Source: the human T2T-CHM13v2.0 reference genome, Homo sapiens. Taken from it: a stretch of 64,000 nucleotides of DNA. The DNA is taken from the NCBI RefSeq assembly GCF_009914755.1, contig NC_060940.1; one strand, 5' to 3'. Below are positions 60,901 to 62,362 of the stretch, piece after piece; positions within the stretch are counted from its first letter, which is position 1, and each line of letters opens with the position of its first letter. The translations under genes were made by a program, and so were the position numbers. The notes below the pieces were generated by a model, which was not told where the DNA came from, made no database searches, and worked only from the letters and a program-made list of their open reading frames with translations.

Positions 60901-62226
60901 CACCTGCCGAGCGTCTGCGGGGGCCGCTTCCACCCTCAGCGGATGATAATCTCAAGACACCTTCCGAGCGTCAGCTCACTCCCCTTCCACCCTCAGCTCC
61001 ACCCTCAGCAGATGATAATATCAAGACACCTGCCGAGCGTCTGCGGGGGCCGCTTCCACCCTCAGCGGATGATAATCTCAAGACACCTTCCGAGCGTCAG
61101 CTCACTCCCCTTCCACACTCAGCTCCACCCTCAGCAGATGATAATATCAAGACACCTGCCGAGCGTCTGCGGGGAGCGTCTGCGGGGGCCGCTTCCACCC
61201 TCAGCGGATGATAATCTCAAGACACCTTCCGAGCGTCAGCTCACTCCCCTTCCACCCTCAGCTCCACCCTCAGCAGATGATAATATCAAGACACCTGCCG
61301 AGCGTCTGCGGGGGCCGCTTCCACCCTCAGCGGATGATAATCTCAAGACACCTTCCGAGCGTCAGCTCACTCCCCTTCCACCCTCAGCTCCACCCTCAGC
61401 AGATGATAATATCAAGACACCTGCCGAGCGTCTGCGGGGGCCGCTTCCACCCTCAGCGGATGATAATCTCAAGACACCTTCCGAGCGTCAGCTCACTCCC
61501 CTTCCACCCTCAGCTCCACCCTCAGCAGATGATAATATCAAGACACCTGCCGAGCGTCTGCGGGGGCCGCTTCCACCCTCAGCGGATGATAATCTCAAGA
61601 CACCTTCCGAGCGTCAGCTCACTCCCCTTCCACCCTCAGCTCCACCCTCAGCAGATGATAATATCAAGACACCTGCCGAGCGTCTGCGGGGGCCGCTTCC
61701 ACCCTCAGCGGATGATAATCTCAAGACACCTTCCGAGCGTCAGCTCACTCCCCTTCCACCCTCAGCTCCACCCTCAGCAGATGATAATATCAAGACACCT
61801 GCCGAGCGTCTGCGGGGGCCGCTTCCACCCTCAGCCGATGATAATCTCAAGACACCTCCCTTAGCTACTCAGGAGGCTGAGGCAGAAAAACCACGCAAAC
61901 CCAAGAGGCAGAGGGCGGCTGAGATGGAACCACCTCCCGAACCCAAGAGGCGGAGGGTCGGTGACGTGGAACCGTCACGCAAACCCAAGAGGCGGAGGGC
62001 CGCTGACGTGGAACCATCATCACCCGAACCCAAGAGGCGGAGGGTCGGTGATGTGGAACCGTCACGCAAACCCAAGAGGCGGAGGGCCGCTGACGTGGAA
62101 CCATCATCACCCGAACCCAAGAGGCGGAGGGTCGGTGACGTGGAACCGTCACGCAAACCCAAGAGGCGGAGGGCCGCTGACGTGGAACCATCATTACCCG
62201 AACCCAAGAGGCGGAGGTTGAGCTGA
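39822..62226 (+). CDS. NPIPB5: Nuclear pore complex-interacting protein family member, NPIPB3/4/5/11/12/13 type (morpheus, LCR16a). Join 39822-39941, 49657-49785, 53404-53503, 53616-53811, 57886-57946, 58056-58091, 59452-62226 = 1138 aa
   Basis: All introns are GT-AG with matching phases. Translation [17 protein letters not shown]...[20 protein letters not shown]...[17 protein letters not shown]...PPSADDN repeats...PKRRRLS is the NPIPB architecture. The family is certain; the paralog is a best guess from orientation (NPIPB4 and NPIPB13 are near-identical alternatives). Confidence 0.9.
40857..40919. repeat. (CA)n microsatellite, about 31 units
   Basis: Uninterrupted CA run at an Alu tail. Confidence 0.97.
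42145..42231 (+). pseudogene. Remnant of the ACSM1 terminal coding exon within NPIPB intron 1
   Basis: Acceptor ttcagccag|, translation [28 protein letters not shown] versus recalled ACSM1 C-terminus [28 protein letters not shown]. Confidence 0.85.
45228..45290 (+). CDS. Alternative NPIPA-type first coding exon (possible acceptor at 45158)
   Basis: [21 protein letters not shown], the NPIPA N-terminus, with a phase-0 donor GG|GTATGA in frame with exon 49657. Confidence 0.75.
45590..46050 (+). promoter_or_regulatory. Candidate promoter: TATAAA at about 45600 and a C-rich polypyrimidine tract at about 45808-46020 upstream of the signal-peptide exon
   Basis: gagggagTATAAAgcccc; (CCCCT)n-like low-complexity tract; position relative to the ATG at 46052. 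Confidence 0.4.
46052..46126 (+). CDS. Alternative first coding exon encoding a signal-peptide-like leader
   Basis: [25 protein letters not shown] (basic n-region, hydrophobic core) with a phase-0 donor |GTGAGT in frame with exon 49657; resembles the MRLRFWLLIWLLLGFISHQ start recalled for other NPIPB paralogs. Confidence 0.7.
46176..49305. mobile_element. Alu cluster in NPIPB intron 1 (7 elements: about 46176 +, 46511 -, 46919 -, 47712 -, 48270 +, 48694 +, 49009 +)
   Basis: Alu motifs; T40 tail at about 47712-47751. Confidence 0.88.
48590..49418 (-). mobile_element. MER30 (hAT-Charlie) split by two tandem Alus
   Basis: caacacaaatttgtaaactttcttaaaacatt ... catcagctattgttagtgttagtgtat ... agggaagtcaaaagattggatatccctg. 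Confidence 0.7.
49657..49785 (+). CDS. NPIPB5: NPIPB coding exon 2 (start of a hydrophobic, TM-like segment)
   Basis: ccag|GTT...TGG|gtgagt; [43 protein letters not shown]. Confidence 0.93.
53404..53503 (+). CDS. NPIPB5: NPIPB coding exon 3
   Basis: ctag|GTG...GAAG|gtatgg; [33 protein letters not shown]. Confidence 0.93.
53616..53811 (+). CDS. NPIPB5: NPIPB coding exon 4 (basic region)
   Basis: ccaag|GG...AAACA|gtaaga; [66 protein letters not shown]. Confidence 0.9.
56763..56870 (+). pseudogene. Silenced NPIP exon (used in NPIPA), acceptor AG changed to AA
   Basis: [35 protein letters not shown] with an intact donor |GTGAGT, preceded by tttctctcccttctAA. Confidence 0.85.
57425..57731 (-). 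mobile_element. Alu
   Basis: Alu motifs; target duplication tcagactgtac. Confidence 0.9.
57886..57946 (+). CDS. NPIPB5: NPIPB coding exon 5
   Basis: catag|G...AAA|gtaagg; [20 protein letters not shown]. Confidence 0.92.
58056..58091 (+). CDS. NPIPB5: NPIPB coding exon 6
   Basis: ttcag|ATC...TGG|gtaagt; [12 protein letters not shown]. Confidence 0.92.
59452..62226 (+). CDS. NPIPB5: NPIPB terminal coding exon (924 aa, two coding VNTRs)
   Basis: ctacag|GTC AGA ATG; open to TGA at 62224-62226 (ORF track 59422-62226). Confidence 0.93.
59599..61860 (+). repeat. Coding VNTR 1: 57-nt and 69-nt units, alternating as a 126-nt higher-order repeat
   Basis: Roughly 35 copies of aagacacct...ccaccctcagc(g/a)gatgataat(c/a)tc. 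Confidence 0.97.
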
Positions 62227-62310
62227 GAAGAGGCCAGTGCACTCAAGCCTGAGCAATAAGAATAAAACCGAGTAGAACAAAATAAAAAATTCAAAAAACA
62301 AAACAAAACC
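61858..62310 (+). mobile_element. Diverged Alu right arm with an internally amplified segment (coding VNTR 2, 87-nt unit made of 42 and 45-nt halves)
   Basis: Begins cccttAGCTACTCAGGAGGCTGAGGCAG, repeats AACCCaaGAGGCGGAGG, ends GAGGCGGAGGTTG-AGCTGAGA..CCAgTGCACTCaAGCCTG followed by an A-rich tail. Confidence 0.8.
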
Positions 62311-62362
62311 CACACTCCAAAAACTAACAAAGAATAAATAAATAATATAAAAATAAAATAAA
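62261..62362 (+). terminator. Cluster of AATAAA polyadenylation signals for NPIPB
   Basis: AATAAA at 62261 and 62281 and several more to about 62362, followed by a GT/T-rich stretch. Confidence 0.7.

What the first reader, a model, noticed from the sequence alone, without database searches (positions are those of the whole stretch)
61858..62362. The NLS array, stop codon and polyA signal of NPIPB appear to be a tandemly amplified Alu arm
Seen: VNTR 1 runs straight into cccttAGCTACTCAGGAGGCTGAGGCAG (Alu right arm CCCAGCTACTCGGGAGGCTGAGGCAG, read as LATQEAEAE). The Alu segment GAACCCGGGAGGCGGAGG occurs as (G/A)AACCCAAGAGGCGGAGG seven times plus one variant, encoding seven PKRRR and one PKRQR. 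The Alu then finishes: GAGGTTG-AGCTGAGA (the TGA stop sits at the Alu GAGCCGAGA CpG), CCAgTGCACTCaAGCCTG, AATAAA and an A-rich tail. Known: K(K/R)x(K/R) is the classical importin-alpha NLS. Inference: GG>AA converted Alu PGRRR into PKRRR and amplification built a multivalent, copy-number-variable NLS. This would be a sense-strand Alu domesticated as a protein module and 3' end; I am not aware of it being described.
Basis: partly seen in the sequence, partly recalled or inferred. Interest (0 to 1): 0.85.

Follow-up and report, generated by a model that had tools for sequence, protein, structure and literature searches.

The report
Alu-derived basic repeat ending NPIPB4
The lysine/arginine-rich repeat, the stop codon and part of the 3' end of human NPIPB4 are a tandemly amplified piece of an Alu element, but this origin is already published and the nuclear-import role is still untested.

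Summary
An Alu profile built from 21 ordinary Alus of the window hits 61860-61933 and 62191-62260, same strand and colinear (E 5e-10, 7e-10). With the array collapsed it gives one block, model 163-263, E 2.5e-18.

A natural one-unit paralog at chr16:75.79 Mb aligns in one block, model 163-275, E 3e-22.

Each whole 42/45-nt unit, not only the 18-mer, corresponds to Alu positions 176-217.

In this genome the unit number is:
- 0 in 8 NPIPA copies, which have no Alu;
- 1 in 2 copies, 3 in 2, 4 in 8, 6 in 1;
- 8 in 7 copies, including the window.

The stop TGA lies in Alu sequence but is in frame only because of a clade-specific 4-nt deletion.

The poly(A) hexamers near the annotated end are shared with Alu-less NPIPA, so they are not from this Alu.

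The NLS role is a motif match plus mixed published localisation data.

The Alu origin of this repeat is in print: Bekpen 2017, Martinez-Gomez 2019, Cantsilieris 2020. Verdict: already known.

One lead is left. The arm is unusually diverged, with a G>A excess.

The parts
59874..61857 (+). VNTR 1 (PLPPSADDN / [10 protein letters not shown] repeats). Context only, not Alu-derived.
   Evidence: TRF periods 126/252. The Alu HMM found no hit anywhere in 59300-61859 at E<=10 with filters off. Pfam PF20885 MII repeat matches.
61860..61872 (+). 5' end of the partial Alu right arm (profile positions 163-175). The left arm and the first ~28 nt of the right arm are absent.
   Evidence: The nhmmer alignment starts at model 163 = window 61860.
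61873..62217 (+). Array of eight units, each a copy of Alu positions 176-217. Unit ends: 61914, 61956, 61998, 62043, 62085, 62130, 62172, 62217. Units 4, 6 and 8 are 45 nt. Units 3-8 are three copies of an 87-nt double unit. Each unit encodes about 14 residues: an acidic patch followed by (K/E)PKR(R/Q)R.
   Evidence: Units match Alu 176-217 without gaps at 26-32 of 42 positions; shuffled units give mean 12.7, maximum 23. Spacers alone match at 11-18 of 24; shuffled spacers give mean 6.5.
62218..62278 (+). Rest of the Alu body (profile about 218-275), carrying the last two codons (LS) and the stop.
   Evidence: nhmmer hit 62191-62260 = model 191-264, E 7e-10. The one-unit paralog aligns through model 275.
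62224..62226 (+). Stop codon TGA. Its T comes from C>T at an Alu CpG (model 229). It is in frame only in the window's clade, after a 4-nt deletion.
   Evidence: 4-nt gap against the chr16:11.96 Mb copy.
62261..62266 (+). It lies 96-101 nt upstream of the annotated transcript end, so it is unlikely to be the signal for that end.
   Evidence: The transcript end 62362 comes from the supplied gene table.
62279..62308 (+). A-rich tail of the Alu.
   Evidence: Sequence. Absent from NPIPA.
62309..62318 (+). C-rich island (CCCACACTCC) at the end of the A-tail. Possibly a degenerate target-site duplication of the ACACCTCC just 5' of the Alu. Not established.
   Evidence: Read directly. Inference only.
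62322..62362 (+). End of the 3'UTR, shared with the Alu-less NPIPA copies. It holds AATAAA at 62333, 62337, 62352 and 62357. The boundary is ambiguous by a few A's.

Best explanation
The last 122 codons, the stop codon and about the first 100 nt of the 3'UTR of NPIPB4 derive from a 5'-truncated Alu right arm in sense orientation. It lies inside the terminal exon, directly behind VNTR 1. No splice site is involved: the frame simply reads on from VNTR 1 into the Alu.

A 42-nt segment of that arm (Alu positions 176-217) was duplicated in tandem. It went from one unit to three or four, then in 87-nt double units to six and eight. Read in the NPIPB frame, each unit gives an acidic patch followed by (K/E)PKR(R/Q/W)R.

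Two G>A changes turned the Alu codon GGG into AAG (Lys) before the amplification. A 1-nt deletion removed the Alu's own in-frame TGA. A later 4-nt deletion in the window's clade brought another Alu-derived TGA into frame.

The basic cores fit the minimal classical nuclear-import motif and are more conserved than the spacers. The most likely role is a multivalent nuclear localisation or importin-binding module. That last step is inferred, not shown. All of the structural part is shown here, and its outline is already published.
For: Alu identity:
- Two colinear profile hits in the window.
- One block after collapsing the array: E 2.5e-18, while 200 shuffles reached at most -2.1 bits.
- One block in the natural one-unit paralog L010: model 163-275, E 3e-22.
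- Ordinary Alus on other chromosomes match both the head and the tail of the query.

Unit equals Alu 176-217:
- All 37 units from 9 representative copies are 42 or 45 nt and match this segment at 26-33 of 42. Spacers alone match at 11-19 of 24.
- The last unit of the 28-29 Mb subfamily still begins GAGGCCGAGGCA.

Series of unit numbers: of 27 last exons plus 1 partial copy, 8 have no Alu, 2 have one unit, 2 have three, 8 have four, 1 has six and 7 have eight.

Open frame: 59416-62226, 936 codons, without any correction.

Constraint on the basic core: mean pairwise difference between units is 0.095 in the core against 0.282 in the spacer. Variable columns are 5 of 18 against 17 of 24. 36 of 37 cores fit K-(K/R)-x-(K/R).

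Print:
- Bekpen 2017 predicts NLSs in the middle and C-terminal region of NPIPB. An antibody raised against a peptide of this repeat stains mainly the nucleus (whole section 7 read).
- Martinez-Gomez 2019 reports validated peptides for all three Alu regions of NPIPB6 (passages).
Against: No test of nuclear import exists for the array alone.

In Bekpen 2017 the data are mixed:
- NPIPA, which has no such repeat, was also mainly nuclear.
- The partial clone K1.4, from a 16p12 copy, was mainly cytoplasmic.
- The authors could not clone the full C-terminal repeat.

The stronger conservation of the core could also reflect recent duplication history rather than selection on the protein.

No clean target-site duplication was found, and the 5' junction lies inside a VNTR 1 unit. 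The way the Alu arrived is therefore not settled.

The arm differs from the Alu consensus at 28 of 109 positions. That is more than any of the 21 ordinary Alus of the window, which differ at 4-20 of 104-113.
Confidence: 0.85

Rival explanations
1. The array is Alu-derived, but it is not a nuclear import signal. It could be a neutral by-product of an unstable coding minisatellite. It could also serve another purpose of basic/acidic repeats, such as nucleolar retention, nucleic-acid binding or sequestering import receptors.
For: NPIPA lacks the repeat and was still mainly nuclear. The partial clone from a 16p12 copy was mainly cytoplasmic. The unit number differs between paralogs (1, 3, 4, 6, 8) with no known consequence. 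Martinez-Gomez 2019 argues in its title and abstract that most coding Alus lack evidence of relevance.
Against: The basic core is about three times better conserved between units than the spacer. 36 of 37 cores keep the K-(K/R)-x-(K/R) pattern. Staining with the antibody raised against the repeat peptide was mainly nuclear.
Confidence: 0.35
2. The Alu arm was not inserted into an NPIPA-like gene. It was present in the common ancestor and was lost from NPIPA by a deletion of about 470 nt (about 170 nt in the one-unit state) between the last VNTR 1 unit and the A-rich 3'UTR.
For: There is no clean target-site duplication. The 8 nt in front of the Alu (CACCTCCC) belong to a VNTR 1 unit and are missing from NPIPA, so NPIPA is not an exact empty site. 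The arm is very diverged and shows the S-type state at two sites that I recall as separating AluS from AluY. Both points would fit an older element.
Against: Cantsilieris 2020 and Bekpen 2017 state that monkeys carry only the NPIPA-type repeat, and that a partial AluY insertion is specific to African-ape NPIPB (passages only, figures not seen).
Confidence: 0.12
3. The resemblance to Alu is a chance or convergent likeness of a GC-rich coding repeat.
For: A plain blastn with one Alu copy at E<=1e-10 missed the region. The most diverged spacers match Alu at only 11 of 24 positions, a level reached by 3.3% of shuffles.
Against: E 3e-22 over 113 colinear model positions in the one-unit paralog. E 2.5e-18 in the collapsed window array, with shuffles at or below -2.1 bits. 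An A-rich tail follows the body.
Confidence: 0.01

Closest known systems
The NPIPB C-terminal PKRRRxxDVEP repeat as published (Bekpen et al. 2017, bioRxiv 10.1101/116087; Martinez-Gomez et al. 2019, PMC6924539; Cantsilieris et al. 2020, PMC7419210)
   Same: It is the same object. [quoted passage not shown] NLSs were predicted in this region, and localisation was studied.
   Different: These points are not in the passages I could read, though they may be in figures or supplements that I could not see:
- the unit mapped to Alu positions 176-217;
- the one-unit copy at chr16:75.79 Mb;
- the turnover of stop codons;
- the origin of the poly(A) hexamers outside the Alu;
- the S-type rather than Y-type state at two sites;
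- the G>A excess.
Other Alu pieces in main coding isoforms that supply a C-terminus or a stop codon (TTF1, ZNF101; Table 1 of PMC6924539)
   Same: An Alu inside a terminal coding exon adds residues and/or the stop codon.
   Different: Those cases are single unamplified pieces. Here an internal 42-nt Alu segment became a coding minisatellite of up to 8 units.
Classical Alu exonisation through splice sites in antisense Alus (recalled general knowledge, not from a call)
   Same: Alu sequence becomes protein-coding.
   Different: Here the Alu is in sense orientation, no Alu splice site is used, and the Alu extends an existing terminal exon (one open frame from 59416 to 62226).
Classical monopartite importin-alpha NLS, pattern K-(K/R)-x-(K/R)
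   Same: 8 of 8 cores in the window and 36 of 37 in nine paralogs fit the pattern.
   Different: Only a pattern match. Binding and import are untested, and the signal would be multivalent.

Membership tests
Alu SINE, right arm, sense strand | Significant colinear alignment to an Alu profile | tested here: met
   E 5.2e-10 and 7e-10; E 3e-22, model 163-275; E 2.5e-18; shuffles at or below -2.1 bits. The profile was built from 21 Alus of the window, not from Dfam.
Alu SINE, right arm, sense strand | A-rich tail directly after the body | tested here: met
   62279-62308 is A-rich. It is absent from the 8 NPIPA copies.
Alu SINE, right arm, sense strand | Full dimeric element (left arm plus right arm) | tested here: not met
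   The alignment starts at model 163. There is no Alu hit in 59300-61859. It is a partial element, as print also says.
Alu SINE, right arm, sense strand | Target-site duplications and an exact empty site | tested here: inconclusive
   8 of 8 NPIPA copies lack the Alu, but they also lack the 8 nt in front of it. Only a degenerate candidate duplication was seen, ACACCTCC against ACACTCC.
AluY subfamily (the label used in print) | Y-type bases at subfamily-diagnostic sites (sites recalled from memory) | tested here: inconclusive
   18 of 20 Alu-bearing copies carry GGAGGTTGAG and 0 of 20 carry GGAGCTTGAG. The other two, L010 and L011, read AGAGGTTGAG, so the G state holds in all 20. In the window, the S-type and Y-type forms of two motifs occur 16 against 3 times and 22 against 5 times. 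The one-unit copy reads ATCACTG, nearer to the S-type form. No curated consensus was available, so this is a lead only.
Coding minisatellite (VNTR) | Head-to-tail units, in frame, with differing copy number | tested here: met
   TRF periods 42 and 87. Units are 42 or 45 nt, all multiples of 3. There are 1, 3, 4, 6 or 8 units among paralogs. Variation between human haplotypes was not testable, because only one genome was available.
Classical monopartite NLS | Sequence pattern K-(K/R)-x-(K/R) | tested here: met
   36 of 37 unit cores fit, including 8 of 8 in the window.
Classical monopartite NLS | Binds importin-alpha and is sufficient or necessary for nuclear import | not testable with these tools
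   The published data are indirect and mixed.
Alu exonisation by splice-site creation | An Alu-borne splice site creates a new internal exon | tested here: not met
   The Alu lies inside the terminal exon. The frame is open from 59416 to 62226, and the supplied gene table shows no exon boundary at the Alu.

The most novel reading that the evidence does not exclude
The partial Alu was hypermutated G>A on its sense strand before the NPIPB subfamilies split. This is what deamination of the first-strand cDNA by an APOBEC3 enzyme during retrotransposition would leave. That burst would have created the Lys codon (GGG to AAG), the flanking Lys/Glu codons and the A-rich hexamers. It would turn a Gly-Arg stretch into an NLS-like motif in one step, and the motif was then amplified.

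Evidence: 18 substitutions are shared by all 9 representative arms. 12 of them are G>A and 2 are C>T. The asymmetry gives p 0.018 (Fisher) and p 0.014 against the 85:73 ratio of 21 ordinary Alus. The arm is more diverged than any ordinary Alu of the window.

Weak points: the test was chosen after seeing the data, the GA/GG context is not enriched (p 0.28), and selection for Lys/Glu codons would give the same bias.
Probability: 0.18. Interest if true: 0.55.

Novelty: already known. Interest (0 to 1): 0.25.

Why it matters
NPIPB sits in the LCR16a core duplicon, one of the fastest-evolving gene families of African apes. A mobile-element fragment that became a repeated, translated protein module is a clear case of new coding sequence arising from a repeat.

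The main point is already in three papers, so the value here is confirmation plus detail:
- the exact Alu segment that forms the unit;
- a living one-unit intermediate;
- the shifting stop codons;
- the correction that the poly(A) signal is not Alu-derived.

The open question that matters is functional: does the array drive nuclear import, and does the unit number tune it?

Tried and rejected
1. VNTR 1 as Alu-derived: no hit of the Alu profile in 59300-61859 at E<=10 with filters off.

2. Unit as Alu 194-242. The first nhmmer alignment suggested this, but it needs a 6-nt gap. I rejected it in favour of 176-217. That segment needs no gap, gives exactly 42 nt, and is supported by units that still begin GAGGCCGAGGCA.

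3. A local donor Alu. The one-unit arm is 68-76% identical to each of the 21 window Alus, no better than to the consensus at 74%. Genome-wide, no non-NPIP hit exceeded 90% identity, and those hits covered only the 50-75-nt head. Only 40 of 404 candidates were scored, so this is not exhaustive.

4. APOBEC context: GA context is not enriched among the mutated G (6 of 12 mutated against 14 of 41 of all G; p 0.28). For the whole one-unit arm, G>A against C>T is 14:6, not significant (p 0.11).

5. chr16:14.72 Mb hit (L009): it has no VNTR 1 motif, so I took it for an ordinary Alu and dropped it.

7. No fold, complex prediction or importin test was run. The reference set for complexes holds no human importin, and a disordered repeat would not give a useful model.

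8. Two further papers were checked for NPIPB NLS data and gave none.
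Full report
**What is in the sequence**

The motif RAACCCAAGAGGCRGAGG occurs eight times between 61897 and 62217, all on the + strand. None was expected in 100 shuffles. Tandem Repeats Finder reports the array with period 42 (61890-62217) and period 87 (95% matches).

VNTR 1 ends at 61857 and runs into CCCTTAGCTACTCAGGAGGCTGAGGCAG. In the frame whose codon starts at 61858 the text reads [19 protein letters not shown]..., holds seven PKRRR and one PKRQR, and ends with LS and TGA at 62224-62226. 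That frame is open in the plain genomic sequence from 59416 to 62226, 936 codons.

**Is it Alu?**

No curated repeat library was at hand, so I built a profile from the window itself.
- A blastn with one complete Alu gave 67 hits. 21 of them covered at least 260 of 283 positions. None at E<=1e-10 fell in 59400-62400.
- A profile HMM of those 21 copies (292 positions) hits 61860-61933 (model 163-242, 29.1 bits, E 5.2e-10) and 62191-62260 (model 191-264, 28.7 bits, E 7e-10). Both are on the same strand and in the same order.
- Three weak hits lie on inner units (E 0.03-0.16), and nothing hits VNTR 1.
200 shuffles reached at most -2.1 bits.
- A search of the window's own genome also brought up ordinary Alus on other chromosomes. 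They match the head (query 3-76) and the last unit plus tail (query 342-460) at 73-90% identity. Only 40 of 404 candidates were scored.

**A natural unamplified copy**

The 221 nt around the start of the last exon occur 27 times at 97-100% identity, 26 on chr16 and one on chr18. I fetched the 3' ends of all 27 and of one partial copy. The unit numbers are as follows:

| Units | Copies |
|---|---|
| none (no Alu head at all) | 8, at 14.7-18.4 Mb (NPIPA region) |
| 1 | 2: chr16:75.79 Mb, and the partial copy at 76.01 Mb |
| 3 | 2 |
| 4 | 8, including chr16:11.96 Mb and chr18 |
| 6 | 1: chr16:29.66 Mb |
| 8 | 7, including the window; these seven are 100% identical over the 505-nt query |

The one-unit copy aligns to the Alu profile as a single block, model 163-275, 66.4 bits, E 3e-22.

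**What the repeated unit is**

I cut the arrays at the ends of the basic cores. All 37 units from nine representative copies are 42 nt, or 45 nt with one extra codon.
- Unit 1 is the original Alu stretch that begins GAGGCTGAGGCAG.
- The last unit of the 28-29 Mb and 80 Mb subfamilies still begins GAGGCCGAGGCA.
- Without gaps, or after removing one 3-nt block, the units match Alu profile positions 176-217 at 26-33 of 42. Shuffled units give mean 12.7 and a maximum of 23 (n = 6200).
- The 24-nt spacers alone match at 11-19 of 24. Shuffled spacers give mean 6.5, reach 11 or more in 3.3% of shuffles and 15 or more in 0.05%.
- The most diverged spacers are units 3, 5 and 7 of the window, at 11 of 24. 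Their link to Alu rests on their likeness to the other units, at 15-22 of 24 along the chain.

So the whole unit is Alu-derived, not only the 18-mer. The step from four to six to eight units went by an 87-nt double unit.

**The Lys codon**

In the NPIPB frame the Alu consensus of the window reads GAA CCC GGG AGG CGG AGG. The arm has AAG for GGG: positions 206 (a CpG site) and 207. The one-unit copy already has AAG, so the change came before the amplification. Among ordinary Alus of the window, the codon is GGG in 9, AGG in 3, AAA in 1, GAG in 1 and AAG in 0 of 14.

**Stop codons**

Read in this frame, the Alu consensus would stop at a TGA at model 224-226. All NPIPB arms lack one base at model 221, which shifts that TGA out of frame (alignment, sequences).

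Where each copy ends:
- The 28-29 Mb subfamily reads on through ...RLSKLRTRHCTQAWAIRINP to a TAG.
- The 80 Mb copies and one at 29.33 Mb run into the A-tail and end at a TAA.
- The 11.96 Mb copy ends at a TGA after ...GHCTQA.
- The one-unit copy ends at a TGA after ...AIRRNL.
- The chr18 copy has a stop inside unit 3.

The window's clade (eight copies) has GAGCTGAGA where the others have GAGTAAGCTGAGA (4-nt gap). That deletion brings TGA 62224-62226 into frame. Its T is the C>T change at the CpG of model 229.

**Poly(A) signal**

AATAAA occurs at 62261, 62281, 62333, 62337, 62352 and 62357. The supplied gene table ends the transcript at 62362. The last four hexamers lie in ...AACTAACAAAGAATAAATAAATAATATAAAAATAAAATAAATA. 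The eight Alu-less NPIPA copies carry this stretch directly behind their last VNTR 1 unit.

The signal that fits the annotated end is therefore not part of this Alu. The Alu-internal hexamers are real, but they lie 76-101 nt upstream of that end. I had no transcript data to see whether they are used.

**Function**

36 of 37 cores, including 8 of 8 in the window, fit K-(K/R)-x-(K/R). The core peptides are KPKRRR (12), EPKRRR (10), KPKRQR (8), KPKRWR (6) and KPKRWS (1). Between distinct 42-nt units the core differs by 0.095 per site and the spacer by 0.282. 5 of 18 core columns vary against 17 of 24 spacer columns. That fits constraint on the basic motif, though duplication history could contribute.

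What print says in Bekpen et al. 2017 (section 7 read whole):
- At least four NLSs are predicted in the middle and C-terminal region of NPIPB, and none in NPIPA.
- A partial clone of the 28.67 Mb type was exclusively nuclear.
- A partial clone of a 16p12 copy was mainly cytoplasmic.
- NPIPA constructs were mainly nuclear.
- An antibody against [15 protein letters not shown] stained mainly the nucleus.
- The full repeat could not be cloned.

Martinez-Gomez et al. 2019 report validated peptides for all three Alu regions of NPIPB6. So the repeat is translated, but its import activity is not shown.

**Prior art**

[quoted passage not shown] PKRRRxxDVEP' (passages).
Two searches and two further papers gave no direct test of the array as an NLS.

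**What stays odd**

- *Divergence from consensus.* The arm differs from the Alu consensus at 28 of 109 positions (21 outside CpG) in the one-unit copy. The 21 ordinary Alus of the window differ at 4-20 of 104-113 (0-13 outside CpG).
- *Direction of the changes.* 18 substitutions are shared by all nine representative arms, so they predate the subfamily split. 12 of them are G>A and 2 are C>T. Fisher gives p 0.018, and a binomial test against the 85:73 of ordinary Alus gives p 0.014. The sequence context is not informative (p 0.28). This test was chosen after seeing the data.
- *Divergence between subfamilies.* The Alu-derived part differs at 7-12% of sites. The pre-VNTR part of the exon, the A-tail and the 300-nt 3' flank differ at 0-4%. 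For example, 16 of 153 against 10 of 474, p 4e-5.
- *Subfamily state.* At two sites that I recall as separating AluS from AluY, the arm has the S-type state, although print calls it AluY.
- *Junctions.* I found no clean target-site duplication, and NPIPA also lacks the 8 nt in front of the Alu.

Cytidine-deaminase editing at insertion, selection for charged codons, and capture of an older Alu all remain possible. Ape and monkey loci, which no tool here holds, would decide.

**Verdict**

The Alu origin, the amplification and the position of the stop are right. The poly(A) claim and the expectation about NPIPA are not. The NLS role is open. The finding is already known.

Noticed in passing
window 59416-62226: The supplied RefSeq model XM_047446682.1 splits the last exon with 1-2-nt gaps (after 60544, 60781, 61161 and 61307), as if correcting frameshifts. 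The plain genomic sequence is nevertheless one open frame of 936 codons. It switches naturally from PLPPSADDN to [10 protein letters not shown] repeats and back. The corrections seem unnecessary.
   Followed up: partly
L010 (G000:C16:75784500-75787500, minus strand), locus positions 1582-1798 in sense orientation: This NPIPB-type copy on 16q has only two VNTR 1 units and a single, unamplified Alu unit. Its unit keeps more Alu-consensus bases (33 of 42; ATCACTG) than any unit of the multi-unit arrays, which fits a primitive state rather than a collapsed one.
   Followed up: partly
L011 (G000:C16:76013300-76016300, minus strand), sense positions about 1440-1530: A partial copy of the same one-unit 3' end lacks the start of the exon. 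It is preceded by a long GGGAGA-type simple repeat.
   Followed up: no
L015 (G000:C18:11780500-11783500): The chr18 copy has four units but a stop codon inside unit 3 and a KPKRWS core. This fits print calling this locus inactive.
   Followed up: no
window 61860-62278 against flanks: Between NPIPB subfamilies the Alu-derived part differs at 7-12% of sites, while the neighbouring exon, A-tail and 3' flank differ at 0-4%. This is local acceleration, or local escape from gene conversion.
   Followed up: partly
window 60550-61190 (residues 366-526 of the last-exon translation): Pfam PF20885 (NPB13-like MII repeat) matches with E 3.4e-182. No Pfam family covers the PKRRR array. A weak CagY_M 'DC-EC repeat' match (E 1.5e-5) is probably a repeat artefact.
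   Followed up: no
G000 chr16 80.21, 80.32 and 80.44 Mb: This assembly holds three near-identical four-unit copies about 114 kb apart on 16q.
   Followed up: no
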